Under the pieces are notes generated by a model that had not been told where the DNA came from, did no database searches, and saw only the letters and a list, made by a program, of their open reading frames with translations. This document shows, in pieces, positions 7,817 to 22,450 of a stretch of 64,000 bases of DNA. The stretch spans positions 1-64,000 of IMG/VR virus record IMGVR_UViG_3300014913_000009, one strand, 5' to 3'. The stretch comes from a virus. The position numbers were made by a program, and so were the translations under genes. Each line of letters starts with the position of its first letter. The first letter of the stretch is position 1.

Positions 7817-7852
7817 TCATCAATTTTAAATGCGGATTGATGATAACCGCAT
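7817..7852 (-). promoter_or_regulatory. 5'-UTR H-type pseudoknot motif, copy A
   Basis: AUGCGG-UUA-UCAUCAAU-CCGCAU-UUAAA-AUUGAUGA directly before the SD. Confidence 0.7.
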
Positions 7853-7899
7853 ATAAAAAATTAACCCGAGTACAAATCGTACCCGGGTTAATTGAATTA

Positions 7900-8334
7900 T
7901 TATCTATCGCAATTCTCGCAATAGATATACACTTCTCCTCCGGCAATTGCCGGTTCCGATGTATCTAAGTACATCGGACCATGACACTTCGGACATATCC
8001 CGGAAGTGTCGGGTGACCTTTCTAATTCGGGGATTTCGTTTCTTTTGATTGTTCGAAGATACCACCCATCTTCCAATTTTTCGTCTCTTTGAACATCATG
8101 ACCAAATTTTCCGATCCAGTTTACTATTGTGTCTTCCGGATTATTGACTTTTGGTATAATACACCAGAAATTGTCCTCCTCTTCGAGGAAACCTCTTTTT
8201 ACAAACTTCACGAGGGCTTTCCCCTCGCCACCGGGAAGGTATGCGACAACAGCGTACCTCTCCCGAACTGTTTCGCCTTTTCCTCGAAATCCTCCGATTT
8301 CGAAGAACGAAATAGCTTCCAAGAAATTATTCAT
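7900..8334 (-). CDS. Hypothetical protein with C-terminal Zn ribbon
   Basis: CPKC...CENC. Confidence 0.7.
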   Translation of the reverse strand: MNNFLEAISFFEIGGFRGKGETVRERYAVVAYLPGGEGKALVKFVKRGFLEEEDNFWCIIPKVNNPEDTIVNWIGKFGHDVQRDEKLEDGWYLRTIKRNEIPELERSPDTSGICPKCHGPMYLDTSEPAIAGGEVYIYCENCDR

Positions 8335-8349
8335 AACATTCCCTTTTCT

Positions 8350-8383
8350 TCGTCAATTTTATTGCGGATTGACGATAACCGCA
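8350..8383 (-). promoter_or_regulatory. 5'-UTR H-type pseudoknot motif, copy B
   Basis: UGCGG-UUA-UCGUCAAU-CCGCA-AUAAA-AUUGACGA before the SD. Confidence 0.7.
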
Positions 8384-8391
8384 TATTAATA

Positions 8392-8462
8392 TTGGCAAAT
8401 CTCATCAGTACCGGAATGCCAATCCGGCAGACCGACGCCGATACCAGCGTCGGTTTCGATTT
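8392..8462 (-). ncRNA. Type II hammerhead ribozyme (HHR-1)
   Basis: AAAUC-GAAA-[stem III with GUAU loop]-GUC cleavage triplet-[stem I UGCCGGA/UCCGGUA, loop UUGGCAU]-CUGAUGA-GAUUU-GCCAA. Complete core plus a loop I / 3'-tail pseudoknot. Confidence 0.93.
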
Positions 8463-8739
8463 AAATGTATTCTAATACCCAATTTTCCGGGTTGTTTCCC
8501 GGAACTCTACCACCAAAATCAAGATAGTACATTCTATCTATCTTTTTGGAAGAGAGCCCAATTTTGGCGGACTCGTATCCGCCATAACTATCGCTCTCGA
8601 ATGGGTTTATTTCGTATGTCTCTTCATCGACATATCCCAACATGCCGAGAAAATCAGCAACGGTGTCGATAGTGAAGTCATCTGGTTCTTCCCGACTTTC
8701 TACTTCAACGCCGTGAGCGTTATAAATTAAAACTTCCAT
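8461..8739 (-). CDS. Small acidic hypothetical protein between two hammerheads
   Basis: 92-aa ORF with SD AAAGGAAA. Confidence 0.7.
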   Translation of the reverse strand: MEVLIYNAHGVEVESREEPDDFTIDTVADFLGMLGYVDEETYEINPFESDSYGGYESAKIGLSSKKIDRMYYLDFGGRVPGNNPENWVLEYI

Positions 8740-8754
8740 AATATTTCCTTTTCT

Positions 8755-8787
8755 TCGTCAATTTTATTGCGGATTGACGATAACCGC
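8755..8787 (-). promoter_or_regulatory. 5'-UTR H-type pseudoknot motif, copy C
   Basis: Core identical to copy B. Confidence 0.7.
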
Positions 8788-8794
8788 TTTGAAA

Positions 8795-8863
8795 TTGGCA
8801 TTCTCGTCAGTACCCGGGTGCCAGCCGGATAGACCGACGCCGATACCGGCGCCGGTTTAGAAT
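8795..8863 (-). ncRNA. Type II hammerhead ribozyme variant (HHR-2, G12U)
   Basis: Same fold as HHR-1 with compensated stems and CUGACGA, but UAAA replaces GAAA. Confidence 0.8.
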
Positions 8864-8865
8864 TT

Positions 8866-9201
8866 TTAAATATCGTGAATATTTTCTAAAATGCACTTCG
8901 CGCTTTCCGGCGAAGACACTTCGAATTGTTTGACGGCATAGCGTCGGAGACTCATGCCGAATTGTTTCCACATGTCTTCTGCGGAGAATTCTTCTCCGCG
9001 GGGCGGAAATTTCTCGAATTCTACTGCGATATACACGCAGCAGAGGGAAGCTAAGTGCAGCGGCAAATTACCAATACACAAATTCCCGGCGACATCTGCC
9101 GGGATAGCATTTCCCGTGATGATGTCAAAATCAATCCCGCTATAGCGGGATGTAATGGCTTTTACGGTCGCCGGATGGCGACTGATAATTAAATTTCTCA
9201 T
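8866..9201 (-). CDS. Csx16-like (VVA1548-family-like) protein
   Basis: LIISRHPAT...IGNLPLHLA..C resembles the Csx16 SRHxGA / GTLPxHLA motifs. Confidence 0.6.
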   Translation of the reverse strand: MRNLIISRHPATVKAITSRYSGIDFDIITGNAIPADVAGNLCIGNLPLHLASLCCVYIAVEFEKFPPRGEEFSAEDMWKQFGMSLRRYAVKQFEVSSPESAKCILENIHDI

Positions 9202-9203
9202 AA

Positions 9204-9659
9204 TTAAAATCCTTTCTTAAATTTGTATAAATACACATCTGATTTGCAGATGTTTTTAATTAAACTCATAATTTTATCGACTTCTCCGCCTCCAAGCCCA
9301 CAGCCTATCAGATATGGCATATGGAGAGTTTCTTCTCTCTCTTGGGCAAACTGGTCGACTTTTTCTAAACATACTGCTAAGTCTGCGTATGACACTCTCT
9401 GTCGATTTGTCCCTATGCCATCTTGTGCACACATATTGCACACATAGATCTCTGTGTCTACTTGAATTATTCGGATTTTTCCGAGTTCTTGTTTATTATC
9501 CCGAAAGACTTTTTCAGGAAAAGACCATTTTCGAGAAAGTGCTAACACAAATCCGGCACCCCATTTATTCACATTGTTCACAATATGGCATATGATGGCC
9601 GGTTTTTGAATTGGCGAAGTGACATCGCCTTTTATGATTTTGATCATTATTTTCTCCAT
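9204..9659 (-). CDS. Macro domain (ADP-ribose processing) protein
   Basis: IKGDVT, ICHIVN..NKWGAGF and MPYLIGCGLGGG motifs. Confidence 0.88.
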   Translation of the reverse strand: MEKIMIKIIKGDVTSPIQKPAIICHIVNNVNKWGAGFVLALSRKWSFPEKVFRDNKQELGKIRIIQVDTEIYVCNMCAQDGIGTNRQRVSYADLAVCLEKVDQFAQEREETLHMPYLIGCGLGGGEVDKIMSLIKNICKSDVYLYKFKKGF

Positions 9660-9716
9660 TTATTTTGCCAATAATCCCGAGAATAGAAATCGGGGATTAT
9701 TGACATTGACGATTGT

Positions 9717-9953
9717 TCAATCTGGATACAGAAGTTCTCTAACTTCCTCTACGATTCTTTCATATTCACGAGGAATTCTCTCGTTGCAATATGATTCCGT
9801 TGGCTCTCCATCAAGTGCGATCTTGACGGAGGTAATGAATACTCCGCTTTGTAGATGATTTGCAAAGCGGATTGTGATAGAGTTCGCTCCATCACATACT
9901 GTCATTTCTCTTATGGCGGAAGAAATATCTTCCTGTTTTAATCTTTTAAACAT
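9717..9953 (-). CDS. Hypothetical protein
   Basis: 78-aa ORF with SD AAGGAG. Confidence 0.65.
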   Translation of the reverse strand: MFKRLKQEDISSAIREMTVCDGANSITIRFANHLQSGVFITSVKIALDGEPTESYCNERIPREYERIVEEVRELLYPD

Positions 9954-9983
9954 AATAAACTCTCCTTGAAAAGTGTTGAAATT

Positions 9984-10427
9984 TTACTTAAACTTTAACT
10001 GACGTTTGAGTTTTCGTAAATTTAGATTTACGATGCAAGAAATTCCCTGTTTGGAAACTCCTAACAAATCCCCTATTCGTTGATGGGAATATTCTTTGCA
10101 ACCAAATAAACCAAATTTCATAATTAATATTGCCCTATCACGCATTTTCATTTGCGCTAATAATTGGCGAAATATTTTATTAAGATGGTTTACATATTCA
10201 TTCATAAATACTTGGGATTTTAAGTGTTTATAATATAATTCGGCTGTTAGAATATCGACTTTCTCATGTCGACACTCTACACATATGTCTTGCTTTTCAT
10301 ATCCTTGCATATGATTACAATCCCATTTTTTTATTTTTATCGGCGTATAATGTACACGTCGGTAGAAATCTGTAGTATGGTTAGATTGCCCGCATTGCGG
10401 GCAATCTATAAACTTGAATTTTGACAT
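9984..10427 (-). CDS. Zn-finger plus sigma-70 region-4-like HTH protein
   Basis: N-terminal CPQC...CVEC; C-terminal RDRAILIMKFGL...YSHQRIGDLLGVSKQGIS...LRKLK resembles sigma region 4. Confidence 0.75.
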   Translation of the reverse strand: MSKFKFIDCPQCGQSNHTTDFYRRVHYTPIKIKKWDCNHMQGYEKQDICVECRHEKVDILTAELYYKHLKSQVFMNEYVNHLNKIFRQLLAQMKMRDRAILIMKFGLFGCKEYSHQRIGDLLGVSKQGISCIVNLNLRKLKRQLKFK

Positions 10428-10702
10428 TATTTTGAGTTCTCTCTTTCTAATATTTTATTGATACTGGCTCCAGTATCCATTAATTCTTTTAATGTAATTC
10501 TCTTCTGATGATGGATCCCATCACTTCCAAGAATGCAGGATAGATCGGGTAGAGAAAATTCATAAGGTTCACATTCAAGGCTTACCTTTAGAACTTCATT
10601 TTCAATATTCACTTTGACATCTATATCAAAGTGAACTTTCTCTCGATCCATTAATGCTATTGCGAGCAAACTTGCAATAGCATCATGTGTTTTTGTTGTC
10701 AT
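10427..10702 (-). CDS. Hypothetical protein
   Basis: Coupled ORF in operon. Confidence 0.65.
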   Translation of the reverse strand: MTTKTHDAIASLLAIALMDREKVHFDIDVKVNIENEVLKVSLECEPYEFSLPDLSCILGSDGIHHQKRITLKELMDTGASINKILERENSK

Positions 10703-11012
10703 CTTCCTTCTCTTTCTCTATAACAGAACGCAATTCTTTTAATGCTGGCGAATTGCTATACCATCTTTCAATCCGGATACTAAACAATAATCCGGCGAAT
10801 ATACCTATGGGACCACCCTGAATGACACCCATTACTGCAGATGCTCCGAAAGCGGCACCTCCAGTAAGAATGATATCAATAATAAGCATCACTCCGCATA
10901 TTACTGATGGCCATATCATTTTATTTGACATGGCACTTGCCATTCTATCGAATCGCGTCATTAGTGCCCATAACGACACTAATGACAATACTACTAACGC
11001 AATGGTAAACAT
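10683..11012 (-). CDS. Membrane hypothetical protein
   Basis: About three hydrophobic helices; SD AAGGAG. Confidence 0.65.
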   Translation of the reverse strand: MFTIALVVLSLVSLWALMTRFDRMASAMSNKMIWPSVICGVMLIIDIILTGGAAFGASAVMGVIQGGPIGIFAGLLFSIRIERWYSNSPALKELRSVIEKEKEDDNKNT

Positions 11013-11026
11013 AACGAATCTCCTTG

Positions 11027-11500
11027 TTAGAGTTCTGATCGTGCAGATACGGCCATTTTATCGACCATATCATTGAATTGAGCATCTATATGGATGCTCC
11101 CAGTATGACTGCGAATATGTTCAGTGTCAAATTTAACTCTTTGACATAAATCGAGAATGATTTTAATCAAATCGATATTTTTCGCCTTTTTTCCAGACGA
11201 TAGTCTCCAGTTTTTCTCGCGCCATTTCGCGCCATTTTTTATGACCTTGATAGCATATTGGCTATCAGTGACAAGTAATGGTGAGATATTCCGCGAATCA
11301 CAATATTTCAAACCAGAAATGATAGCATATAATTCTGCACGTTGGGATGTGCAGTTTTCTACTGAGAACGAAAAGTTACGAACCTTTCGATTATATTTTG
11401 TGACGACATATGCCATTCCGCCACATTTACTTTTAGGACTGTAACTTCCATCAGTATATAACTTATACTGATAGTCTACTGCATCAGATATCTTTGTCAT
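11027..11500 (-). CDS. rnhA: Ribonuclease HI
   Basis: LYTDGS, TSQRAELYA, VTDSQY, KNIDL, HIRSH and NDMVDKMA motifs. Confidence 0.93.
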   Translation of the reverse strand: MTKISDAVDYQYKLYTDGSYSPKSKCGGMAYVVTKYNRKVRNFSFSVENCTSQRAELYAIISGLKYCDSRNISPLLVTDSQYAIKVIKNGAKWREKNWRLSSGKKAKNIDLIKIILDLCQRVKFDTEHIRSHTGSIHIDAQFNDMVDKMAVSARSEL

Positions 11501-11538
11501 AATAATTTTCCTTTCAAGAGATAGTATGATGTGAATAA

Positions 11539-11553
11539 TGATATATTATATCA
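11539..11553 (-). promoter_or_regulatory. Palindromic extended -10 element (TGATATAAT)
   Basis: TGATATAATATATCA palindrome; also at 13790-13804 and 14041-14061, each just upstream of a minus-strand gene. Confidence 0.55.
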
Positions 11554-11686
11554 AAACAAATGATATAATAAATGATATACAAATGATATAAAACAACGAA
11601 TAATATATATAAATGATATATATCATAAATCCCACCATTGTACAAAAGTGATATGTGTATATGTAAATAATATACAATTCATATTG

Positions 11687-11962
11687 TTATGACTGATTAA
11701 AGAAGAATGCTGGAATATATGTAAATAAATACATATTATAATCTTTTTCTATAACAAACTTTGAAATGAGTTTGGTAGAAAGCCAAACATTCCCGTTTTT
11801 CGTAACAATTTTGCATGAATCATTTTCGACAAATATTTCATTTAAATGGAATATTGTCATTTTTACATCAGGAACAAGCAAGCAAGCCTCAACAACTTCA
11901 GGATCAGTAAAATCATTTGGCAATCCTTCGCCAAATTTAAGGTTAGTATAAAAGAATTTCAT
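11687..11962 (-). CDS. Hypothetical protein
   Basis: 91-aa ORF with SD GGAGG. Confidence 0.65.
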   Translation of the reverse strand: MKFFYTNLKFGEGLPNDFTDPEVVEACLLVPDVKMTIFHLNEIFVENDSCKIVTKNGNVWLSTKLISKFVIEKDYNMYLFTYIPAFFFNQS

Positions 11963-12260
11963 AGTAAAATTTCCTCCAAGAAAAAGGTAAGCAAAAGAGC
12001 GGATAATACTAAATAAATCCGCGAATAATTATTTTTAAGACTGAAAGCTACTTTTCATATATATCAAATAAGTAATGTATAATACACCCAAATCGGCAAA
12101 ATATTAATTAAGTGAAGAGGTATGTATGTATATAGAAACAAATATATCAAGACAGATATGAATAAGATAAAAGATAAGCCAAATAGAGATATTTAGAAGC
12201 ATTCAAAGAATACATCTAAAAACCACTCAGAAACCAACAGAAGCAATCAAAGATATAAAT

Positions 12261-12321
12261 ATATAACATAAATTACACCGAGATATAACATGAATTACAC
12301 CGAGATATAACATAAATTACA
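12261..12321. repeat. 22-bp tandem repeat, about 2.8 copies (iteron-like)
   Basis: ATATAACAT(A/G)AATTACACCGAG units. Confidence 0.75.
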
Positions 12322-12987
12322 AAAACCACACTGTTATTCCAGCCGTCTCGTGCCGTCTCGTGCCGTTTAACGCCATTCTAACAGTATTTCGACATATTAC
12401 TAATATCTCTTGATAGCATTCCTATCACGTTCCATATAACTCTTTATATATGCCATATACAGTATGCCATATAGGTATGTTATATGTAATATTGTGTAAT
12501 GTGATAGCCAGCAATATTAGCACATATATTTAATATTTCGCCGAAAAAAGTCATAAGTCCAATTTGTACACCTAAAATGGCTCTTTTTGCAAATGTCCTT
12601 AAAATTCGTAGTAAACCCCTGACGGGGAATACTACTTATGACATATTTTTATTTTTGAAAAGTCATTTTTTTCTCAGGGTTGTACGAAAAAAGTCCATTA
12701 GACACTTATGACTTTTTTTACGTCTTTTTTGCCACTCTAAACTGCCCCTATTTGGCGAATAGAGGCATTCTACGTTGCAAAAATTGCCCAAAATAGGCTA
12801 TTTTTGTAATTTATGATTTATATAGATTATTGAGCACCATACAAACTCTGTCAACTCTACCAAAATCGGCATATTATTATGTGTATTTCTACTACTGATT
12901 GCCAATCATATCACCTCTATAAATATATGTTTTTTCTCACTTTTTCAAATCGGCATATATTTTATTGATTGGATATTTCTCTTTGAT

Positions 12988-13279
12988 GCGCTCGCTTCGC
13001 TCGCGCCCAATAATAATGGTGATTTACCATATATGTTGACATGTAAAGTCCCATCAGACTGCCTCTACACGGCAAATAAATTCTCCTCAAAACACCTTTT
13101 TATGTGATAAATGACACATAAGGCCAAAATGCTCTTTTGGGTAGATATTTCTCTTAAGTGCGCTCGCTTCGCTCGCGCTTATAATGGGAGTATTATTCTT
13201 GATGATTGCGCTCGCTCCGCTCGCGCTGATATATGACAATCAAGTGTTCTTCTTGATGATACGCTCGCTCCGCTCGCGC
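12988..13279. repeat. Four dispersed GCGCTCGCT(T/C)CGCTCGCGC repeats
   Basis: Copies at 12988, 13160, 13208 and 13261 in AT-rich non-coding DNA. Confidence 0.85.
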
Positions 13280-13482
13280 TTATATGGCGTCAGGTTAATC
13301 GCCATATGTTAAGAAGGGGCTGTTATAATAACGATTGGTAATTCGGCTAATTATAAAAATGGCTGATTGCCTATTTGGTTGCTATCCCTTATGATAGGTG
13401 CCGATTGGTATTATGTGCACGTCTCGGGATTCAGGCTATCAATATAAAGTATTAGCCGGGAAATGGTCTGTCGGCGGAGTAG

Positions 13483-13515
13483 AAAAAGCCCCTCCCCATA
13501 ACAGGGGAGGGGCTT
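13483..13515 (-). terminator. Intrinsic terminator
   Basis: AAGCCCCTCCCC/GGGGAGGGGCTT followed by a T run. Confidence 0.8.
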
Positions 13516-13524
13516 GCCAGGGGT

Positions 13525-13731
13525 TCAGGGAGCGTAAGGGCAGTCAGAGGAACATTCCTCTTCGTAGCACTTCGCGCCCTTATAGTGACAATAATTATGT
13601 ACCCAACATGTTGCATCAGCAGCGTTGATGGCTCGGCGAGCGCCACCACGTTGCACTTTACGACCATTTCGACCTTTGTGACACCAATCGTCACTTTTGG
13701 TCGTTGCCGCAATTCGTTCATATGGTTTCAT
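13525..13731 (-). CDS. Small Cys/His-rich hypothetical protein
   Basis: ATG 7 nt after AAGGAG; followed by a terminator. Confidence 0.55.
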   Translation of the reverse strand: MKPYERIAATTKSDDWCHKGRNGRKVQRGGARRAINAADATCWVHNYCHYKGAKCYEEECSSDCPYAP

Positions 13732-13796
13732 AATGATTCTCCTTGTAAAATGATATAAAAATAATACAAACGATATAAAAGTGATATAATGATATA

Positions 13797-14021
13797 TTAT
13801 ATCACTTTCTCTAAATGTTTTGTCGGTTCCGTCAATATCATAAGTTTTATTGACGGAAACAACAATATAAATGACAATGCGTCTACGTTTTCTCTTCGAG
13901 CCTCTTTATCAGAGACGATGAGGTGGATCAGAATAGATCCTATAATCGCAATCGGAAGGACTGCAATAGCATTTACCACCAATATGGCGATAAATACTGT
14001 AAATACGATTTTGTCTTTCAT
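13797..14021 (-). CDS. Small membrane hypothetical protein
   Basis: SD AGGAG; hydrophobic. Confidence 0.6.
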   Translation of the reverse strand: MKDKIVFTVFIAILVVNAIAVLPIAIIGSILIHLIVSDKEARRENVDALSFILLFPSIKLMILTEPTKHLEKVI

Positions 14022-14115
14022 GATAAATTCTCCTGAAAGTAAGTGATATATTATATCACTTGGGTGAATGAATCTCCCACCATGCCGACAAGTGGCATAG
14101 TGGGAGAAAAATACT

Positions 14116-14508
14116 TTATTCTACGGTTTCTGGAGTTTCCTCTGGCTTTTTGCCGAAGAGGTGACTCCAGATCGACAGGATCTTTCCGAAGACCCAATCG
14201 TGGACTCGCTTCTCCGCTTTGGGAGAAACGACGGAGGCTATCAAAATGCATAGTCCTCCAACACACGCTAATCCCGCGATTAGCGAGAGGTTCTTGAACA
14301 GATAGTACGCCAGAAGAACTGGCATGACCACAACAAGTAAAAATCCCACTGCGGGGGATTTCTCACATAATGTGTCAATCTTCTTTCGGGGATTAACAAA
14401 TCCCGCGAAATGACTGACAAACGAGGACTCTAATCCCCGTTTTTTTGCTTTGCCGAGGATTTCGGTGATCTTCTTTCGGGGATTAACAAAATTTTCTGTG
14501 TGTTTCAT
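14116..14508 (-). CDS. Membrane hypothetical protein with duplicated FVNPRKKI motif
   Basis: Probable start ATG 14508; two TM segments; internal 23-bp direct repeat. Confidence 0.55.
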   Translation of the reverse strand: MKHTENFVNPRKKITEILGKAKKRGLESSFVSHFAGFVNPRKKIDTLCEKSPAVGFLLVVVMPVLLAYYLFKNLSLIAGLACVGGLCILIASVVSPKAEKRVHDWVFGKILSIWSHLFGKKPEETPETVE

Positions 14509-14579
14509 ATTTTTCTTCTTTCTGTTTGCAATTTTAGATGAGATTGCAATTAACTCATTGATGATACTCAAAATACTCA

Positions 14580-14774: not shown

Positions 14775-14830
14775 AATATTTCTCCTGATATGACAAGCAA
14801 GCATCGCTTGCTTGTCGTTTGAATAAAAAT

Positions 14831-15616: not shown

Positions 15617-15788
15617 ACGATCGGGTTCTCTTCCGAGAACTAATTAACGCTTTGCATCGATTTTGCCAAAACGTTCCACGTCATTCCCGCAATGGCGAGT
15701 TTGACGCACCACATGGAATCAAATGTGGATTTTTCCCGAACTTTCTCTGCCCCCTTGGGCCAGGCATTCGGATACCTAATCTGATCGC
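15617..15788 (-). ncRNA. Candidate multibranch ncRNA
   Basis: GCGAUC/GAUCGU encloses five hairpins; a terminator follows (15576-15612). Confidence 0.5.
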
Positions 15789-16075
15789 ATTTTCAACTGC
15801 CTTTGATTTTAACCGTCAGATCTCGGTTACATCTTTGTTTATACTCCTTATGATGTTTCAGAGTTTTGAATAGGCCTTATTCGAAATCCCCACTATTTCG
15901 AAGTGCCGGAAGACGCAATAGGGAGGTCTTCGAGCACCCCGAAGAGAGTCGGGGTGCGAGTCCGCAAGCGAGTCTTCGAGCGAAGCCTTACGGAGTAAGG
16001 CGGAGTTGCAAGCGAGTCTTCGAGCGAAGCTCTTCTCTTCTCTTGTGGGGGGGGTGGCGGAGTAAGGAAGAAAGA

Positions 16076-17119
16076 CTATTCCTCGTCCTCTTCCTCCTCT
16101 TCTTCCTTTTCTATTTTTACGCCCGACTCCAACAGGAACCGGGCGGCCTCCACAAATCCTTCCTCTATTGCTACTCTCATTTCCCACCCGTAATCTCCAG
16201 AATTGAGGTCTATCCAACCCCCTTCTACGAGGGTCTTTATCATGGGCACACTTCCCAGCGCGTACAGCAGCGCTTGACATGGAAGATCGCCACCTTCCTC
16301 CAACATTAACTGAACCAGACGGCAGTGTCCCGCCCTGATGGCACGGAGGACATCCTCCTCGTCAATTAATGATGCACGAGACCTTGATTCGATCAGGGTC
16401 CGTGAGATGCACTCACATCCCATCCTCACGGATGTGGAGAGGTGCTCTGAAGATGCACGCCCTCCGAACTCAAGAGCGAGATGAATCATAGAAACGTTCC
16501 CACTCTCAAGTGCGTCCTCCATGATGTCTCCCTCATAGTCGGGAGTCCTCTCCAACAGCATCCGTGCTGCGAGGACATTCCCCGATCTTACCTCTCTGTT
16601 CACCTCCATGCCCGAAAGTGGGCATTCAAGTGACTCTAGTATCAACCGGAGGCATTCCACCCCCTGCAGGCTGCCTCCTTGACAGTATCTTATCGCCTGC
16701 GCGAGTGAGCTCTTGTTCTTGCCCGCTCCTCGCTTGAGGAGCAGGCGGACGATCTCAGTATGACCATGGAACGAGGCCCATCTCAAAGGACCCCCCTCGT
16801 CGAAGTGTATACAAGCCCCTGCATCAAGGAGCATGCGAACAGCACCCTCCCTGCCCTCCGTAGAGGCACTAACAAGCGCCTCCCCCAGGGTCTCGTTCGA
16901 AAAACAAGACTCTTTTAAAAGCATCATGAGGATGCTTTCCTTTCCACGCCATGCTGCCGTCAAGAATACCGTCTTGACGGCATCTTTCGACACCCCTCTT
17001 GCGAGGATAGTCTTTACGACAGATTCTCGTCCGCCGTATGAGGCCTTGATAAGGCCTCCTTCCAACACCCTCGTGGGGATGTTGTTTGCCATCAACTCAA
17101 GTGTGAGTCGACGATCCAT
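16076..17119 (-). CDS. Ankyrin-repeat protein (N-terminal domain apparently frameshifted off)
   Basis: Repeats such as PLRWASFHGHTEIVRLLLKRGA; acidic tail. Confidence 0.85.
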   Translation of the reverse strand: MDRRLTLELMANNIPTRVLEGGLIKASYGGRESVVKTILARGVSKDAVKTVFLTAAWRGKESILMMLLKESCFSNETLGEALVSASTEGREGAVRMLLDAGACIHFDEGGPLRWASFHGHTEIVRLLLKRGAGKNKSSLAQAIRYCQGGSLQGVECLRLILESLECPLSGMEVNREVRSGNVLAARMLLERTPDYEGDIMEDALESGNVSMIHLALEFGGRASSEHLSTSVRMGCECISRTLIESRSRASLIDEEDVLRAIRAGHCRLVQLMLEEGGDLPCQALLYALGSVPMIKTLVEGGWIDLNSGDYGWEMRVAIEEGFVEAARFLLESGVKIEKEEEEEEDEE

Positions 17120-17129
17120 TCCTGAGACC

Positions 17130-17327
17130 TCACGAATGAGGTCCCAGTGGGAGTTCTCTCTCGCAAGAGTCTCCCCCCATCTTCTTGGGGGGGGAGATAT
17201 GAGGTTTTACATCAAGGAATTCCCTGATGGAACATCCATCAGGGAATATATCGTTGAATGTTTCTGTCGATTCTTCCGAGAGATCGACAGAATGCATGTT
17301 CTTAAAATATCCTTTTGTGATCTTCAT
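17130..17327 (-). pseudogene. N-terminal fragment of the ankyrin gene, split at a C8 tract
   Basis: MKIT...FPDGCSIREFL matches the N-terminus of paralog 17509-18312; removing one base restores the frame into 16076-17119. Confidence 0.6.
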
Positions 17328-17366
17328 AACATTTTCTCCTGTAATATGACAAAGCAAGCATCGCTT

Positions 17367-17410
17367 GCTTGTCGGTTGCTTGTCGGTTGCTTGTCGGTTG
17401 CTTGTCGGTT
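17367..17410. repeat. 11-bp tandem repeat x4
   Basis: GCTTGTCGGTT x4. Confidence 0.9.
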
Positions 17411-17415
17411 GAACA

Positions 17416-17508
17416 AAATACAGACAAGAACAGTTCTTGTCTGTCATACTCTCTATTGGGGTGATTTCGTCCATACGGAGAAATCCCCACATGGTGTCTC
17501 TTTACATC
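17416..17508. repeat. 93-bp perfect direct repeat, copy 1
   Basis: Identical to 18412-18504. Confidence 0.95.
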
Positions 17509-18312
17509 TTACGCTCCATTCTCAACAAGCAGTTTGACGACTGCTAAATGTCCGTTCCTCCTCGCCCAACGCAACGAGGAACCGTGATTTTCATTCGTAT
17601 TAGCCCCTCCTTTTATTAGTAGTTTCGCAATTTCTGCGTATCCATTTCTCGCAGAAAGATACAATGCACGCCCTTTAAACGCGTTAACATCTGCACCGCT
17701 CTCAAGGAGCAGTTTTACAACTTCAGGGTAATTACCAATCACTGCCCAGCGCAGTGGATCTCCGTCTATAACATCCGCATCCACTCCCGCCTCAAGGAGC
17801 AACCTCACGATTGCAGTGTGTCCGTTTTCAGCGGACGAACACAATGCCCAATCATAATGGGCGTTTATACCCATCTCTATCAGCAATTTCACAATTGCAG
17901 TATGCCCGTATACAGCGGATAAATGTAATATGGAGTCTATATCCACCCCCATCCCTATCAGCAATTTCACAATTGCAGTATGCCCGTTTTTCGCCGACAA
18001 ATGCAACACATGATTATTGTGGGCGTGAACATTCGCGCCATTCTTGAGCAGCAGTTTTACAACCGCTATATTCCCGTGTTCCGCTGCATCTCGCAACGCC
18101 CAATCGTCTCTGACATGAACGTTTGCACCTGCATCAAGACAAGCCTGGGTTATATCGACCCGCCGTGCCATTAGCCAACCCAGCCATCCGTTATTGTCGA
18201 GTTTTTCGAGCAGTTCTGGTACGGTACACCCGTCCGGGAAATGCTTGTCGAACCAGTCAATGCCAGATTCACAGGCTTTGAGTTCTATTAATAAGTCAAT
18301 TGTGATTTTCAT
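17509..18312 (-). CDS. Ankyrin-repeat protein
   Basis: About six or seven canonical repeats (ALxxAAxxGHxxIVKLLLxxGA). Confidence 0.93.
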   Translation of the reverse strand: MKITIDLLIELKACESGIDWFDKHFPDGCTVPELLEKLDNNGWLGWLMARRVDITQACLDAGANVHVRDDWALRDAAEHGNIAVVKLLLKNGANVHAHNNHVLHLSAKNGHTAIVKLLIGMGVDIDSILHLSAVYGHTAIVKLLIEMGINAHYDWALCSSAENGHTAIVRLLLEAGVDADVIDGDPLRWAVIGNYPEVVKLLLESGADVNAFKGRALYLSARNGYAEIAKLLIKGGANTNENHGSSLRWARRNGHLAVVKLLVENGA

Positions 18313-18328
18313 ATTTTTTTTCTTTCTT

Positions 18329-18365
18329 CCATCAATTTTAAAACGGATTGATGGTTAACCGTTTT
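18329..18365 (-). promoter_or_regulatory. 5'-UTR H-type pseudoknot motif, copy D
   Basis: AAAACGG-UUAA-CCAUCAAU-CCGUUUU-AAA-AUUGAUGG; compensatory changes in both stems. Confidence 0.7.
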
Positions 18366-18411
18366 TCCTGTTTGGAAATAAAAAACCTTGACTACAATTG
18401 TAGTCAAGGTT

Positions 18412-18504
18412 AAATACAGACAAGAACAGTTCTTGTCTGTCATACTCTCTATTGGGGTGATTTCGTCCATACGGAGAAATCCCCACATGGTGTCTCTTTA
18501 CATC
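18412..18504. repeat. 93-bp perfect direct repeat, copy 2 (includes the 3' end of the single-chain RNAP gene)
   Basis: Identical to 17416-17508. Confidence 0.95.
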
Positions 18505-21500
18505 CCCACTTGGAGAGTATGTCGGCGACATTTCGTTCGCCAACATTATAATCCCGATTTCTATTCTCGGGATTATCCGTAACGAAGGAGCACCCTTTAT
18601 GGAGTGCATCCATCACTCTCTCCACGGGGAGTGGTGCCCTGTCTTTCCTCTTTCCGTTTACGGAAATAAACAGGACCTTATTCTCCTCCCCATTCCAGTT
18701 GGGGAGATTTTTGACATATCTGCCAGTACTCCCCTTGGAGTCTAGATTTGCCAAAAGGAGATCAGAACGATCCCATTTTGCCTTATCCTTTTCTCCATAT
18801 TTCCCCTGGAAGATTTCCTCCGCAGGGGATCCAAATTCAATCTCATTGGACATTGCATCCAATGAGATTTTGGGAGACCATTCAGGGTTACTCATACGAC
18901 CCCCAATGATCGCCCACACTCCCATCGGAACAATCTGTTCGACGAGAGACCATGGATGAACATTTTCACCCATAGCATAAGGCTTGCCGCTCTTATCGCG
19001 GTTTACCTTAAGAGTTCTATCTTCAAGATAGAACTTCTTAATCCTACCTTTCGTATTGCGCTCGGCGAGACTCATCGAGCGTAATATGCAGATTAGATAG
19101 AACTCAATTGAATGAGGCATATCAATCAAGTACTGTTTGATAGCCTCTATTTGCTGGCTATTATATTTAGAGTCACTTCTAAACATGCTAGCCCAAATAT
19201 CAAATAAGGACATTACCGACATTCCATAGCCGTCAATATCCTTCTCCGAATTCAAACGCCCCTGCATAAGGCGTTCACGTGCCTTACCTCGAACATTCTT
19301 GACGGCTGGGCGTTTAGACCACAACTCTATCAAGAGGCTCGAGACGGCATTATAAAGCCCCACATTATCCTCTGCTCCGAGGGTGGGACTTTTAATGACA
19401 GAGTACATCTGAGCGAGCCTTCCAAAATGAGGCTCCTGGATGTTGCTCCATTTATGACAATTCTCGACTACTTCCTTGTAGCCAAGAATTGTCGAGGTTT
19501 CACCAATCACCCGCTTCTCTGCGAGCGATTGGACTTCGGGGGACGCATCTTTCGATGGGCCCTTTATATATTTATAAAGGGAAGCATCTTCATGCATCCT
19601 CCAAATCGAGGGGCTTCTCTTGCCCCAATTGTCGGGAATTCTATTCCCGAAAGTTCGAGCCAGAATTTTGTCTGGCTCGACCTTGCAACCCAAGAACTGT
19701 TGACATTCGTCTCTAAACAGATCTGGGTTGATAATAACGCCATCCAACTTATGTTTCAATAAGTTGATAGCGACCTGAACCTTCATGGTCAATCCATAAA
19801 GGCTCGAGGCACATGATATGAGATCAAGTCCCATATCATGTGCCTTAGAAAATAGGGATGAGAGTATATTATCATATACTCCAATCCCATTAGTTTGGAC
19901 ATCCATGATCATGTCACGAACGCCCTTCCAACCCCAAGACTCACTCCGCTTGGTGGTCGGAGTGTCAAGCCCATCAGCATAAACATCTTTCGATGCTCTG
20001 ACGGACTTAACAATACTCAGATTCATTGCATGCAACTTAGACCAAGTCGCAGGCAACAAATCAACATGGGACACATTAACTGCATCTCCATCGAAATCTC
20101 CTCGACATAATATCGAGAAGATTTCCGGATTTACACTCATTGCGTTTGAGTGTGAACCCTTAACCTCCCTGGCTACGACGATAGATCCCGCCGTGACCAG
20201 TGGGGAACGTGTCATCATGACGTTCCCCTTGCGAGGTTTCATCCCACCAGGAATGGCAATAATCGTATTGCCACCCCGAAATGGGGGGATACATGGGTCG
20301 GGCATCACATAAGCATAAATGCCACGAACTCTTACATTCGCAGCCTTATGATGCAATGCCTTCCCCATTGCGCTCTCACCATATATGCCCGCGACATGAC
20401 ACTTCATGCCGGGAACATTCATAGCGAAAGCGCCTTTTGTATTGGCATCCACTCCGAATGCCTCATACATGAGCTGGTAATCAGCCCATTTGCCGCCAAT
20501 ATTGACGGCATGAACGCCCCGCGCCAATTTCTCGCACGTGACGTACGTTTTAGCCATCAAATCCTCGACCGAGGCATTATCCGGCATATTGCGGATGATT
20601 TGAGAACTCATTTTTACTGAGTTTCCAACATCCTTAATTTCAGAGATGCATGTAATTGCACCTCTTTTGGCACCACTACCAGTGGACTTTATATTCCACG
20701 GGCTAATAGTCCCAAACTCTGCCGACAATCCCAACCGGGACATCAGCAAAGAAATGAAAGTACTGGAACCACATAGCCCTTTGGCTATGTCAATTCCAGT
20801 TTCTCGAAGTTGTACGGCACGCAGCTGTACAACCTCATCTTTGGGCTCAACATTATATATGTTAAGCCCGTCGAAATATTTATCGCCAAATTCGACAAAC
20901 ACTTTTTCAGTGCTGTCGAACTGAGATAAATATTCTCCTATAGTAACAATGTCACTATAGGCTGGCATTGTCATCCAATCGGACGGCAATGCCTTCTTGA
21001 TGGAACGATTGGCACTATTGTACCATTTGTTCCATCTCCCTTCGGCAATTGTAGACACGATAATTTTTATCGCATCCTCCTTGCCGAAACGAGACAATGG
21101 AAACAAGTCCATTGTCTCGAATTTATAACTTGTCACCTCCCTGCAAGGTGACAACAGGAGCCGCGTATAAATCGCTTCATACACGGCCTTGAAACCCCCA
21201 GGTATGAGGGTTTTAAACTCACCCCGGTTTAGGAGGATGAATTGCTCACCCTTCATATCCGGGATTAATACCGCCACTTTACTGACGGTCCTGAATATGC
21301 TCCCAAGACGACTCTCGAGAGCATCGTCTACACGGGCCCTGACCCATGCAGACATCTTTGCAGGTTCGTCCTGGGGACACCTGTCCCACAGTTCGTCCCG
21401 GACAAGGGCTTTTACACCCTTTATGGAAATAGTAGCAAGTTCCTGACGCTTGCTACCAAGGATTGAAAGGATATGTTCTAAAACACGCCCTTTCACTTCA

Positions 21501-21583
21501 ATCGACCCCACACACGTGAGGTCGATTTTCAATCCCATCGACTTAAATAGAACCTCGAAGGTCCTATTTACTAAATTCTTCAT
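18449..21583 (-). CDS. Single-chain two-barrel RNA polymerase (YonO / cellular RdRP-like)
   Basis: FDG, QLR...AKG...NIK (first barrel), RSP...GDFDGD (R-to-D spacing 37) and IGVYDN, in RdRP/YonO motif order. Confidence 0.82.
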   Translation of the reverse strand: MKNLVNRTFEVLFKSMGLKIDLTCVGSIEVKGRVLEHILSILGSKRQELATISIKGVKALVRDELWDRCPQDEPAKMSAWVRARVDDALESRLGSIFRTVSKVAVLIPDMKGEQFILLNRGEFKTLIPGGFKAVYEAIYTRLLLSPCREVTSYKFETMDLFPLSRFGKEDAIKIIVSTIAEGRWNKWYNSANRSIKKALPSDWMTMPAYSDIVTIGEYLSQFDSTEKVFVEFGDKYFDGLNIYNVEPKDEVVQLRAVQLRETGIDIAKGLCGSSTFISLLMSRLGLSAEFGTISPWNIKSTGSGAKRGAITCISEIKDVGNSVKMSSQIIRNMPDNASVEDLMAKTYVTCEKLARGVHAVNIGGKWADYQLMYEAFGVDANTKGAFAMNVPGMKCHVAGIYGESAMGKALHHKAANVRVRGIYAYVMPDPCIPPFRGGNTIIAIPGGMKPRKGNVMMTRSPLVTAGSIVVAREVKGSHSNAMSVNPEIFSILCRGDFDGDAVNVSHVDLLPATWSKLHAMNLSIVKSVRASKDVYADGLDTPTTKRSESWGWKGVRDMIMDVQTNGIGVYDNILSSLFSKAHDMGLDLISCASSLYGLTMKVQVAINLLKHKLDGVIINPDLFRDECQQFLGCKVEPDKILARTFGNRIPDNWGKRSPSIWRMHEDASLYKYIKGPSKDASPEVQSLAEKRVIGETSTILGYKEVVENCHKWSNIQEPHFGRLAQMYSVIKSPTLGAEDNVGLYNAVSSLLIELWSKRPAVKNVRGKARERLMQGRLNSEKDIDGYGMSVMSLFDIWASMFRSDSKYNSQQIEAIKQYLIDMPHSIEFYLICILRSMSLAERNTKGRIKKFYLEDRTLKVNRDKSGKPYAMGENVHPWSLVEQIVPMGVWAIIGGRMSNPEWSPKISLDAMSNEIEFGSPAEEIFQGKYGEKDKAKWDRSDLLLANLDSKGSTGRYVKNLPNWNGEENKVLFISVNGKRKDRAPLPVERVMDALHKGCSFVTDNPENRNRDYNVGERNVADILSKWGCKETPCGDFSVWTKSPQ

Positions 21584-21695
21584 AATTTCTCCTTTCTTGA
21601 AAAAGATGGCTTATGAATAGCCAGAGGCCAACATAACCCCACACAATAGAAAGACGTTCTTTTCGCGTGGAAAAAAACATTCTTGCGTGGGGAAA

Positions 21696-21753
21696 AAACT
21701 GTTTCATCCCACCTACGGGAATCGTCAGGCACTAAAAGTAAGTGCTACAGTTT
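21696..21753 (-). ncRNA. Type III hammerhead ribozyme (HHR-3)
   Basis: AAACU-GUA cleavage triplet-GCACU(UACUUUU)AGUGC-CUGACGA-U-UCCC(GUAGGU)GGGA-U-GAAACAGUUU. Confidence 0.88.
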
Positions 21754-21818
21754 AGTTAGAGGGAAAGAAAAAATAGAGGAGAGTTTTTACACTCTCCTCT
21801 ATTTCCCATTCGCCTAAT

Positions 21819-22094
21819 TTATGATAAATCGTCTATGGATCCATCGGGGTTCACTCTGTGGCATTCTTCTCCACAGCTCAATATTAGGTGGAGGTTGGCT
21901 TTGTACAGCGATATACTCCAGTGGTAAGAATTATCGTTGGCATTAAGCCAACGATTACTGTAATCAATACCGTACCCGTCATCGCACCCCTCAAACATAT
22001 CTTGATCCGACAATTCAAAATTGTTTTTCAATGTATTCACCTGTGCTTCAGTTACTAATGAAAACAATTTTACTTCTTTCGTTGCATTTGTCAT
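21819..22094 (-). CDS. Hypothetical protein
   Basis: SD AGGAGG; followed by a hairpin at ~21770-21804. Confidence 0.7.
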   Translation of the reverse strand: MTNATKEVKLFSLVTEAQVNTLKNNFELSDQDMFEGCDDGYGIDYSNRWLNANDNSYHWSISLYKANLHLILSCGEECHRVNPDGSIDDLS

Positions 22095-22109
22095 GGATAT
22101 TTCCTCCTA

Positions 22110-22450
22110 TTAAAAAGCTGGTTCCCACCAGGCCTATTTGTTAATAGACTTGTATCTCATGGTTGGGATGGACACTCCCTTAAAATACCAGTAGATACCA
22201 TTGGGTGTAGTTACACTCATCACTCTATGCTCAGTTAACCCCATAGAGTAAGGTATTTAGTTTTTACAGCATTGCCCTTAGGTTACTGCACCAGGTCATT
22301 CTTGTAGGGCTATGTTTCCTGAGATTCGCCCGATCAACTATTTTAAGAGGATTGATCTTCCTCCGCAGGTAATTCTTTGTTTACAATAAGCCCCCACACC
22401 ACGTCAAGGTGATTACCAATCGTGGGAGTAGACCCCATAAGGGGTCCAAC
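22110..22450 (-). ncRNA. Candidate structured leader/ncRNA containing pseudoknot copy E (22332-22364)
   Basis: ORF-free with many hairpins; GGAGG-AA-GAUCAAU-CCUCU-UAAAAUA-GUUGAUC. Confidence 0.5.

What the first reader, a model, noticed from the sequence alone, without database searches (positions are those of the whole stretch)
7817..22364. Repeated covarying H-type pseudoknot placed immediately 5' of ribosome-binding sites
Seen: five copies (7817-7852, 8350-8383, 8755-8787, 18329-18365, 22332-22364) with layout S1 - 2-4 nt - S2 - S1' - A-rich loop - S2'. Both stems show compensatory changes. S1 is GCGG/CCGC, ACGG/CCGU or GAGG/CCUC. S2 is UCGUCAAU/AUUGACGA, UCAUCAAU/AUUGAUGA, CCAUCAAU/AUUGAUGG or GAUCAAU/GUUGAUC. 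Four copies end 16-17 nt before an ATG, and two sit directly downstream of hammerheads. Inference: a 5'-end stabiliser (exonuclease block), translation enhancer or protein-binding site. I do not recognise the family.
Basis: partly seen in the sequence, partly recalled or inferred. Interest (0 to 1): 0.78.

Follow-up and report, generated by a model that had tools for sequence, protein, structure and literature searches.

The report
Portable pseudoknot leader before phage genes
A small knotted RNA fold is repeated in front of the ribosome-binding sites of several small accessory genes of an uncultured sediment phage, sometimes right behind a self-cutting ribozyme, and most likely acts as a swappable leader that keeps each gene's start site usable wherever the gene is moved.

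Summary
The motif lies on the minus strand. All five reported copies exist, and I found a sixth at 14526-14557.

- **Structure.** Both interleaved helices pair in every copy, with two-sided changes at 7 of 12 pairs. Related metagenome contigs carry G-U pairs at the positions that switch between G-C and A-U. This supports an RNA H-type pseudoknot.
- **Known families.** No Rfam family matches, preQ1 and RAGATH models included.
- **Position.** Five window copies end 15-17 nt before an ATG. Copy c5 lies inside a long non-coding stretch.
- **Upstream elements.** c2 follows a type II hammerhead. c3 follows a sub-threshold one with a core substitution. c1 and c4 follow terminator-like hairpins.
- **Mobility.** The ribozyme + pseudoknot + RBS module is 92-93% identical to contigs of a diverged phage whose neighbouring ankyrin genes share only about 40-50% of residues. 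One gene occurs both with and without the module.

Best reading (0.45): a portable cis-acting leader that insulates the RBS and caps the message, a natural counterpart of RiboJ's hairpin. Rivals are a protein operator, ribosome docking and a phage-polymerase promoter. No RNA data exist.

This scan has noted analogous leader folds, with no shared sequence found, in other phages.

The parts
7817..7850 (-). Pseudoknot copy c1: GCGG / UUA / UCAUCAAU / CCGC / AUUUAAA / AUUGAUGA
   Evidence: Model R1 scores 60.1 bits, but c1 was part of that model.
8350..8382 (-). Pseudoknot copy c2: GCGG / UUA / UCGUCAAU / CCGC / AAUAAA / AUUGACGA
8755..8787 (-). Pseudoknot copy c3, with a core identical to c2 (duplicate module)
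   Evidence: Repeat families D6 and D9.
14526..14557 (-).
   Evidence: Descriptor scan and pattern search. It is 76% identical to the c4 module over 50 nt (D15). Covariance models score it only 9.7 bits.
18329..18362 (-). Pseudoknot copy c4: ACGG / UUAA / CCAUCAAU / CCGU / UUUAAA / AUUGAUGG
   Evidence: R1 scores 34 bits, E 1.5e-7, and c4 was not in that model.
22332..22363 (-). Pseudoknot copy c5: GAGG / AA / GAUCAAU / CCUC / UUAAAAUA / GUUGAUC. It has no nearby start codon and lies inside about 435 nt of non-coding sequence.
7801..7816 (-). Purine-rich spacer with RBS (AGAAAAGGAAGAUAUU) between c1 and the ATG of gene 7573-7800
8335..8349 (-). Spacer with RBS between c2 and the ATG of gene 7900-8334
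8740..8754 (-). Spacer with RBS between c3 and the ATG of gene 8461-8739
14509..14525 (-). A-rich spacer with no GG between c6 and the ATG of gene 14116-14508
18313..18328 (-). A-rich spacer with no GG between c4 and the ATG of ankyrin gene 17509-18312
8390..8461 (-). Type II hammerhead, 7 nt upstream of c2
   Evidence: Rfam RF02276, 37.4 bits against a cut-off of 37.
8793..8863 (-). Hammerhead-like element 5 nt upstream of c3. It is below Rfam's cut-off and has U for G in the GAAA core.
   Evidence: RF02276, 32.2 bits against 37. See the alignment.
7859..7893 (-). Terminator-like hairpin plus T-run directly upstream of c1
   Evidence: 16 pairs.
18384..18411 (-). Terminator-like hairpin plus T-run upstream of c4
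   Evidence: 12 pairs.

Best explanation
The motif is an RNA H-type pseudoknot. S1 has 4 bp and S2 has 7-8 bp, the two stems abut with no nucleotide between them, L1 is 2-4 nt, and L3 is A-rich and ends in AAA. Together with the 15-17-nt purine-rich, unstructured spacer that carries the RBS, it forms a leader of about 50 nt.

This leader is one block of swappable between-gene modules. Each module has a 3'-end former (a type II hammerhead or a terminator-like hairpin), then the pseudoknot, then the RBS. The modules stand before small accessory genes of an uncultured sediment phage.

Most likely the pseudoknot works in cis and passively. It locks the leader sequence next to the RBS into a compact fold. 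The RBS therefore stays single-stranded whatever gene or upstream sequence the module is joined to. It also gives the processed or read-through message a structured 5'-proximal block against 5'-end-dependent decay. This is the job ascribed to the hairpin behind the ribozyme in the synthetic insulator RiboJ.

Shown here: the pairing, the position, the conservation of the module and its presence/absence. Inferred: insulation and stabilisation.
For: **Both helices are real.**
- All 94 stem cells in 8 full copies (6 from the window, plus L078 and L129b) form standard pairs.
- 8 of 12 pairs vary, and 7 of those change on both sides.
- On the 7 model-aligned copies, 80 of 80 cells pair. Sliding the 3' partner by 1-3 columns gives only 22-62%.

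**The pairing is strand-specific.** There are 5 G-U cells at 3 positions and no A-C cell. Two of the G-U positions are those that alternate between G-C and A-U among the window copies.

**Conservation fits the fold.** The junction-proximal pairs and the 3' AAA of L3 are invariant. The distal pairs and the 5' half of L3 drift.

**Position.** Every copy is sense to the genes. Five of the six window copies end 15-17 nt before an ATG, and the three metagenome copies end 14-17 nt before one.

**What lies upstream.** c2, L078 and L129b follow hammerheads. c3 follows a sub-threshold hammerhead-like element. c1 and c4 follow terminator-like hairpins.

**Portability.**
- The module is 92-93% identical at nucleotide level to contigs whose ankyrin genes share only about 40-50% of amino acids.
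- One gene (product beginning MYKLKH) stands behind hammerhead + pseudoknot in L129. In L078 it overlaps the upstream ORF directly.
- In run X2 a copy precedes yet another ORF.
- The c4 cassette is bracketed by exact 93-nt repeats.

**Other support.**
- The spacer is 83% purine against 61% for other genes in the block (p 0.0013). c1-c3 are related, so this is not an independent sample.
- A rough energy estimate puts the pseudoknot at or below the best nested fold in 7 of 8 copies.
- The RiboJ design and its suggested effects on stability and RBS exposure are described in the passages I read of PMC6206723.
Against: - No RNA data exist, so neither transcript ends nor the fold are shown.
- A passive insulator needs no conserved sequence, yet CAAU/AUUG, the inner G-C pairs, the UUA of L1 and the AAA of L3 are kept even in the diverged copies c5 and c6. 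That could instead mark a binding site.
- c5 has no RBS beside it.
- After hammerhead cleavage the message already starts with a 5'-OH and the stem I hairpin, so extra protection may be redundant.
- c1 and c4 lie behind terminator-like hairpins with no recognisable promoter between. This fits a promoter reading as well as read-through.
- The RBSs of pseudoknot genes are not weaker than those of other genes (-4.3 against -5.4 kcal/mol, p 0.19).
- The family is known from only about 9 copies in one phage lineage, and several of them are recent duplicates.
Confidence: 0.45

Rival explanations
1. Operator for a trans-acting RNA-binding protein. A phage (or host) protein recognises the conserved junction of the pseudoknot and represses or activates translation of a small regulon of accessory genes. 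It could do so by spreading over the unstructured A-rich spacer onto the RBS, as T4 gp32 does from its leader pseudoknot.
For: - Sequence is conserved beyond what pairing requires: CAAU/AUUG, the inner G-C pairs, the UUA of L1 and the AAA of L3 are kept in all copies, including the diverged c5 and c6.
- The distance to the RBS is constant.
- The layout of pseudoknot plus unstructured A-rich tract plus RBS parallels the T4 gene 32 operator, as described in the passages I read of PMC3014915.
- c5, which has no RBS, could still be a binding site.
Against: - Pfam or PHROGs show no recognisable RNA-binding regulator among the 27 minus-block ORFs scanned.
- The conserved positions are those a compact pseudoknot would need for its own tertiary contacts.
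- Much of the conservation may simply reflect recent copying.
- The MYKLKH gene is found without the element.
Confidence: 0.22
2. Ribosome-docking translation enhancer. The pseudoknot itself contacts the 30S platform or protein S1 and recruits ribosomes, allowing initiation on A-rich spacers that lack a Shine-Dalgarno sequence.
For: The spacers of c4 and c6 contain no GG at all, only GAAAGAAAAAAAA-like tracts. The 3' edge of the pseudoknot sits at about -16, at the upstream rim of the 30S footprint; that footprint position is recalled knowledge. The distance from pseudoknot to GGA is fixed at 6 nt in c1-c3, L078 and L129.
Against: - The RBS strength of pseudoknot genes does not differ significantly from that of other genes (p 0.19).
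- The same AAAGGA-type RBS serves many genes that have no pseudoknot.
- The MYKLKH gene keeps the same RBS without the pseudoknot.
- c5 has no start codon nearby.
Confidence: 0.12
3. DNA-level signal: a promoter for one of the phage's own RNA polymerases, or a PeSL-like promoter with an embedded stem-loop. The invariant TAAAAT would act as a -10-like box, and transcripts would start in or just after S2'.
For: - TAAAAT is invariant in all six window copies.
- The motif sits where a promoter would sit: behind terminator-like hairpins (c1, c4) and 15-17 nt before the ATG.
- The phage encodes RNA polymerase subunits.
- In P23-45, conserved motifs upstream of start sites define phage-polymerase promoters (section 9 of PMC10770324, read in full).
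- T4-type PeSLs combine promoters with stem-loops that may overlap the boxes and that contain G-T pairs (section 13 of PMC2839356, read in full).
Against: - A duplex promoter does not explain two interleaved helices with 7 two-sided changes, nor mismatches that are only of the G-U type on the sense strand.
- The consensus scan lists no sigma-70-like site at any copy; 11 weaker sites were not shown. By eye, no -35 box lies 16-18 nt upstream of TAAAAT.
- In c5 the TAAAAT is shifted by 3 nt relative to S2'.
- S2 is not followed by a T-run, so it is not a terminator.
- Likelier host-type promoters (TGATATAAT palindromes) exist elsewhere in the block.
Confidence: 0.1
4. Decoy or ligand-sensing RNA: a riboswitch-like pseudoknot, a ToxI-like antitoxin mimic or a solitary CRISPR-repeat mimic (Racr).
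For: Its size (about 33 nt) and H-type topology resemble preQ1-I, SAM-II and ToxI-type folds; this is a recalled comparison. A Csx16-like (Cas_VVA1548) gene lies just upstream of the c3 module. I saw the Racr concept only as an abstract in a search listing (PMC10651486).
Against: - No Rfam family matches, even at E up to 10 on 300 bases.
- There is no L2 and no pocket between the stems, and the RBS is not part of S2', so a ligand could not mask it.
- The downstream genes are unrelated orphans.
- The copies are dispersed, not tandem (spacings 405 to about 3,970 nt).
- A pattern scan of 185,579 species genomes found one hit, inside a glycosyltransferase-like reading frame, and no array.
Confidence: 0.04

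Closest known systems
RiboJ synthetic insulator (sTRSV hammerhead followed by a 23-nt hairpin, placed before the RBS; passages of PMC6206723 read)
   Same: The order is the same: self-cleaving hammerhead, then a small stable fold, then the RBS. The fold stays on the 5' end of the cleaved message. Its proposed effects are a standardised leader, RBS exposure and higher mRNA stability.
   Different: The element here is natural. The fold is a pseudoknot, not a hairpin. The ribozyme is type II. Only c2, L078 and L129b follow a convincing hammerhead, c3 follows a sub-threshold one, and the other copies follow terminator-like hairpins or nothing. No function has been measured.
T4/T2 gene 32 leader pseudoknot (translational operator; passages of PMC3014915 read)
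   Same: A phage mRNA leader carries an H-type pseudoknot with coaxial stems, followed by an unstructured A-rich tract that reaches the RBS.
   Different: The T4 element is a single copy 67 nt upstream of one gene, whose own product binds it. Here at least six copies lie 15-17 nt upstream of unrelated orphan genes, none with an SSB-like domain. No sequence comparison with the T4 element was made.
PeSL cassettes of T4-type phages (Arbiol et al. 2010, PMC2839356; abstract and section 13 read)
   Same: Short repeated regulatory cassettes with a covarying stem-loop stand immediately upstream of ORFans in plastic genome regions and end in an SD and start codon. They serve as recombination points for module shuffling.
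   Different: PeSLs are defined by a strong sigma-70 promoter, and none is detectable here. The structure here is a pseudoknot, and half the copies are coupled to ribozymes.
Clustered hammerheads flanking single genes in prophages (Perreault et al. 2011, PMC3088659; passages read)
   Same: Type II hammerheads bracket a single small gene (8461-8739). The implied role is to cut long phage transcripts into single-gene messages.
   Different: In the passages I read, that work describes only the ribozymes, not a conserved fold between ribozyme and RBS.
preQ1-I riboswitch (Rfam RF00522; features recalled)
   Same: A pseudoknot of about 34 nt with a short S1, an A-rich L3 and a position next to an RBS.
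   Different: The covariance search gives no match. There is no L2 or ligand pocket. S2 is 7-8 bp rather than 3-4. The RBS lies outside the fold. The downstream genes are not queuosine-related.

Membership tests
H-type RNA pseudoknot (structural class) | Two helices in the order S1-5', S2-5', S1-3', S2-3', each supported by covariation | tested here: met
   S1 has 3 of 4 pairs with two-sided changes and S2 has 4 of 8. No cell is unpaired. Slide controls give 22-62% pairing.
H-type RNA pseudoknot (structural class) | Loops long enough to cross the grooves (L1 over S2, L3 over S1) | tested here: inconclusive
   L1 is 2-4 nt over 7-8 bp and L3 is 6-8 nt over 4 bp. Recalled rules of thumb make this plausible, but no 3D modelling tool was available. 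A rough energy estimate favours the pseudoknot in 7 of 8 copies.
Any Rfam 15 family (including preQ1, RAGATH, pistol and twister) | Covariance-model match | tested here: not met
   gathering cut-offs; E up to 10 over 7000-23500; five copies, 300 bases, E up to 10: 0 matches.
preQ1-I riboswitch | L2 with the ligand-pairing C, and the RBS inside the 3' strand of P2 (recalled definition) | tested here: not met
   S2 abuts S1' with 0 nt between them, and the GGA of the RBS starts 6 nt after S2'.
RiboJ-like ribozyme insulator | Self-cleaving ribozyme directly upstream of the fold | tested here: inconclusive
   Met for c2 (37.4 bits), L078 and L129b. c3's element scores 32.2 bits and has a core substitution. 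c1, c4, c5 and c6 have no hammerhead.
RiboJ-like ribozyme insulator | Expression becomes independent of upstream context | not testable with these tools
   Needs reporter assays.
PeSL cassette | Strong sigma-70-type promoter within the cassette | tested here: not met
   The listed output shows no promoter-like site at any copy (11 weaker sites were not shown). By eye, no -35 box lies 16-18 nt upstream of TAAAAT.
PeSL cassette | Sits before ORFans in a plastic region and marks recombination junctions | tested here: met
   The downstream genes are orphans. Module swaps and indels appear, and flanking repeats.
T4 gene 32-type autoregulatory operator | The downstream gene encodes the protein that binds the pseudoknot | tested here: not met
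   The five downstream genes are unrelated: an ankyrin-repeat protein and four proteins with no family match.
Type III toxin-antitoxin RNA (ToxI-like) | Tandem array of repeats next to an endoribonuclease toxin gene | tested here: not met
   The copies are dispersed at 7.8, 8.4, 8.8, 14.5, 18.3 and 22.3 kb. No toxin family was seen among the proteins scanned against Pfam or PHROGs. PADLOC was not searched.
Solitary CRISPR-repeat mimic (Racr) | Sequence matches the repeats of a host CRISPR array | tested here: inconclusive
   A pattern scan of 185,579 species genomes gave 1 hit, in a coding region, and no array. The pattern covers only c1-c4-like sequence, and the host is unknown.
Type II hammerhead (flanking elements) | Rfam RF02276 gathering score and an intact catalytic core | tested here: inconclusive
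   8390-8461 meets both. 8793-8863 scores 32.2 bits (below 37) and has UAAA for GAAA.

The most novel reading that the evidence does not exclude
The pseudoknot is not a passive fold. It is the address tag of a post-transcriptional regulon: a phage-encoded or hijacked host factor, or the ribosome itself, reads its conserved junction. The phage can then switch a whole set of freely exchangeable accessory or anti-defence genes on or off together, whatever gene is plugged in behind the tag. The hammerhead would serve to release each tagged message.
Probability: 0.25. Interest if true: 0.75.

Novelty: new variant of a known kind. Interest (0 to 1): 0.5.

Why it matters
Why phages place hammerhead ribozymes between genes has been open since 2011. 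Here a ribozyme is coupled to a second conserved RNA fold and an RBS in one portable unit. That unit is far better conserved than the genes around it. This gives a concrete, testable model: phages carry natural insulator cassettes that let orphan genes be expressed predictably wherever recombination drops them. The unit is short (about 120 nt with the ribozyme, about 50 nt without) and could be tested directly as an expression part. The motif itself is a new candidate RNA family that is absent from Rfam.

Tried and rejected
- **Alignment problems.** MAFFT alignments of the six copies (A1 and A2) misplace S1 or S2' in c4, c5 and c6 and were not used for counts. Covariance models R1 (from c1-c3) and R2 (7 copies) do not detect c5 or c6 at E up to 5. 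Their membership therefore rests on the pattern, the descriptor scans and repeat family D15. In one search the script chose, for each copy, the register that pairs, so the 94 of 94 count is not an independent test.
- **Chance matches.** A sixth hit of my first loose pattern, at 33325-33341, lies in coding sequence without the fold. I set it aside as chance.
- **Other fold-like sites left out.** The sites at 22450-22479, 14373-14405 and 13827-13865 lack the conserved core or lie in coding sequence. I did not count them.
- **Weaker Shine-Dalgarno idea rejected.** The difference from other genes is not significant (p 0.19).
- **Searches for relatives.**
  - The pattern scan of viral contigs gave 6 hits. 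Five fail S1 pairing. One (L007) can pair but has no RBS context and looks like chance.
  - The 1044-aa protein, the 144-aa protein and the MYKLKH protein have no relatives.
  - Relatives of the RNA polymerase subunit are only 24-48% identical (best segment). Their loci hold no convincing copy.
  - 3 of the 5 records I asked for were searched for type II hammerheads, and none was found. Nothing rang in that search's control genomes either, so this blank says little.
Only 2 contigs (L078, L129; 3 copies) are real, and more may exist.
- **RNA data.** No RNA holder was listed for this stretch, so nothing can be said about expression or RNA ends.
- **Contig joints.** The joints (8765 to 8365; 18313 to 8746) turned out to be L078-type variant copies laid piecewise. 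They are not proof of circles or duplications.
- **Literature.** I searched for a published description of such a leader fold behind phage hammerheads and saw none in the listings. The promoter logos of PMC10770324 (Supplementary Fig. 4) and the hammerhead alignments of PMC3088659 (Dataset S1) could bear on the promoter rival and on prior sightings.

Full report
**What is there.** The window is the first 64 kb of an 89,970-bp IMG/VR virus record that CheckV rates 47% complete. Genes from 1 to about 24.4 kb run on the minus strand and are mostly small orphans, plus two RNA polymerase subunit-like genes. Larger genes follow on the plus strand; earlier notes call these virion genes. The reported motif reads in the sense of the minus-strand genes.

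Each copy has the layout S1 (4 nt), L1 (2-4 nt), S2 (7-8 nt), S1', L3 (6-8 nt, A/U-rich, ending in AAA or AAAAUA), S2'. No nucleotide separates S2 from S1'. All five reported copies are present with the quoted stem sequences.

**More than chance, and a sixth copy.** The pattern CAATC-N3-N{1,5}-TAAAAT contains no pairing information. It hits exactly six sites in the window, all on the minus strand. About 0.86 were expected, and 0 of 100 shuffles reached six. Five are the reported copies. The sixth, at 14526-14557, is new (UGAG / UUAA / UUGCAAU / CUCA / UCUAAA / AUUGCAA) and stands 17 nt before the ATG of gene 14116-14508. Its module is 76% identical to the c4 module over 50 nt (D15).

All six sites also satisfy both helices. 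A structure-only descriptor finds 22 sites in the record, against a mean of 4.65 (maximum 11) in 20 Markov simulations. For sites with an ATG 12-19 nt downstream the figures are 8 against 0.75. The covariance models, which lean on sequence, recover c1-c4 but not c5 or c6.

**Copies elsewhere.**
- A pattern scan of viral contigs gave only chance-like hits.
After filtering for pairing, two short contigs from one metagenome remained, L078 and L129. Model R1, built only from c1-c3, scores their three copies at 48.2, 49.1 and 34.6 bits; the last is cut by the contig end.
- Logan contigs of a second sediment study (run X2) carry c2-like copies. In them L3 is changed from AAUAAA to GUCAAA, and one contig has 2 nt inserted in L1. 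One copy stands 17 nt before a different ORF.
- A scan of 185,579 species genomes found one coding-region chance hit and no array.

**Is it an RNA pseudoknot?**
- Across 8 full copies, all 94 stem cells are standard pairs. In S1, three of four pairs change on both sides: G-C, A-U, U-A and G-U at the first, C-G, G-C and A-U at the second, and G-C and A-U at the third. In S2, four of eight pairs change on both sides and one more shows U-A or U-G. The register was chosen to pair, so I also used the tool on the 7 model-aligned close copies. There, 80 of 80 cells pair. Sliding the 3' partner by 1-3 columns gives 22-62%. 18 of 500 shuffles reach the observed covariation score. That subset has little variation, so most of the covariation comes from c5 and c6.
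- The metagenome copies carry G-U at S1 pair 1 and at S2 pair 6, the positions that alternate between G-C and A-U in the window. c5 has a U-G pair. No A-C cell occurs. This is the path expected for RNA helices on the sense strand. It does not fit a duplex-DNA palindrome.
- Conservation also fits the three-dimensional layout of an H-type knot. The pairs next to the helical junction and the 3' AAA of L3, which must lie beside them, are invariant. The distal pairs and the 5' half of L3 drift.
- Nested folding picks S1 or S2 alone with unremarkable z-scores. A crude pseudoknot energy estimate, using recalled penalty constants, is equal to or better than the nested optimum in 7 of 8 copies.
- No Rfam family matches, even with only 300 bases searched at E up to 10.

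**Context.**
- c2 lies 7 nt behind a type II hammerhead (37.4 bits, cut-off 37).
- c3 lies 5 nt behind a hammerhead-like copy that scores 32.2 bits and has U for the G of the GAAA core, so it may be inactive.
- L078 and L129b also follow hammerheads.
- c1 and c4 follow terminator-like hairpins with T-runs.
- c6 follows the stop codon of the upstream ORF by 22 nt.
- c5 sits in about 435 nt of non-coding sequence with no Rfam match.

The hammerhead cut lies upstream of the motif, so the fold belongs to the downstream message.

The spacer to the ATG is 14-17 nt and purine-rich: 83% against 61% for the 21 other genes examined in the block (p 0.0013). Its predicted pairing to the anti-SD is not weaker than for other genes (p 0.19). 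I therefore dropped the idea that the fold compensates for poor RBSs. The downstream genes are an ankyrin-repeat protein and four proteins with no family match, one of which has no homologue among 5.8 billion clustered proteins.

**Portability.** Between the window and L078/L129, only the hammerhead + pseudoknot + RBS module aligns at nucleotide level (92-93% over about 120 nt). The neighbouring ankyrin genes share about 40-50% of residues.

The ankyrin gene that follows terminator + c4 in the window follows a hammerhead + c2-type copy in L078 and in a strain in run X1. The gene whose product begins MYKLKH stands behind hammerhead + pseudoknot in L129. In L078 it overlaps the upstream ORF with no module, and the two arrangements join at the 3' edge of the pseudoknot. 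The c4 cassette is bracketed by exact 93-nt repeats. The element is thus a dispensable, exchangeable block rather than a gene-specific control.

**Mechanism.** I favour a passive cis role. The compact fold keeps the adjacent RBS free of pairing with whatever lies upstream, and it gives the message a structured 5' region. This is what the hairpin behind the ribozyme is thought to do in the synthetic insulator RiboJ. It also fits the 2011 suggestion that clustered phage hammerheads cut long transcripts into single-gene messages. My confidence is 0.45.

The conserved junction sequence keeps two alternatives alive: a specific protein operator, along the lines of T4 gene 32, and direct ribosome docking.

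A promoter for one of the phage's own polymerases is a genuine rival on grounds of position. Such promoters are short conserved motifs in P23-45, and T4-type PeSLs merge promoters with stem-loops. But that reading leaves the two interleaved covarying helices unexplained, and no sigma-70-like boxes are present. Riboswitch, ToxI-like and CRISPR-repeat-mimic readings fail their defining features.

**Novelty.** The fold is a new candidate RNA family known so far from one sediment phage lineage. Its kind, a portable structured leader coupled to ribozymes or terminators, is close to PeSL cassettes and RiboJ. Earlier notes of this scan describe analogous leader folds in other phages. A look-up with this motif's sequence found none of them.

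**Limits.**
- No RNA data exist.
- About 9 copies are known, and several are recent duplicates.
- The metagenome scan was truncated.
- Supplements of the papers were closed.

Noticed in passing
window 8866-9201 (-): A 111-aa ORF matches Pfam Cas_VVA1548 (Csx16-like CRISPR-associated family; E 6e-7, 30 bits against a cut-off of 25). It lies just upstream of the second hammerhead-like element. It could be an anti-defence gene.
   Followed up: no
window 8793-8863 (-): The second hammerhead copy is below Rfam's cut-off (32.2 against 37 bits) and has U in place of G in the GAAA core. It may be a dead copy that is kept together with an intact pseudoknot.
   Followed up: partly
window 17416-17508 and 18412-18504: Two exact 93-nt direct repeats bracket the unit of terminator hairpin + c4 + ankyrin gene (996-bp spacing). 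This looks like a cassette duplication or insertion scar (D5).
   Followed up: no
window 11539-11552, 13790-13803, 14044-14057 (-): The perfect palindrome TGATATAATATATCA occurs three times upstream of genes (9 hits at up to 2 mismatches, against 1.8 expected). It reads as an extended -10 promoter and may be the early promoter type of this phage.
   Followed up: no
window 22095-22530 (-): About 435 nt without a plausible ORF hold c5 and a second pseudoknot-like fold at 22450-22479 (GCUA / UUU / CGCAUAA / UAGC / AAUAU / UUAUGCG). No Rfam match was found. This may be a larger structured RNA or a long leader of gene 21819-22094.
   Followed up: partly
window about 14860, 15200, 17170 and 22425 (-): Repeated GC-rich boxes (GGGGTCTAC(C)TCCCAC and CTCCCACTCTAAC) stand upstream of several genes, next to repeated terminator hairpins ACAGACAAGAACnGTTCTTGTCTGT. 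They may be a second class of regulatory module.
   Followed up: no
window 8383-8430 (-) against 8350-8375 (-): The core of S2 (GUCAAU/AUUGAC) nearly mirrors the tertiary helix of the adjacent hammerhead (tail GCCAAU with loop I AUUGGC). The 5' strand of S2 could therefore pair with loop I over 6 bp, including one G-U. The nested optimum fold of the whole module uses such alternative pairings downstream of the ribozyme stems. There may be folding cross-talk.
   Followed up: no
window 9984-10427 (-) and 11027-11500 (-): One small ORF gives a near-threshold Sigma70_r4 match (23.1 against 24.1 bits). Another is a clear RNase H (95 bits).
   Followed up: no
L078 1020-1085 (+): A third ankyrin paralogue is preceded by a GC-rich hairpin and then TTTATTATTGAAAAGGAAAAAAAAGAATAAAT-ATG. 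This looks like the 3' remnant (ATTGA + purine spacer) of a decayed pseudoknot module.
   Followed up: no
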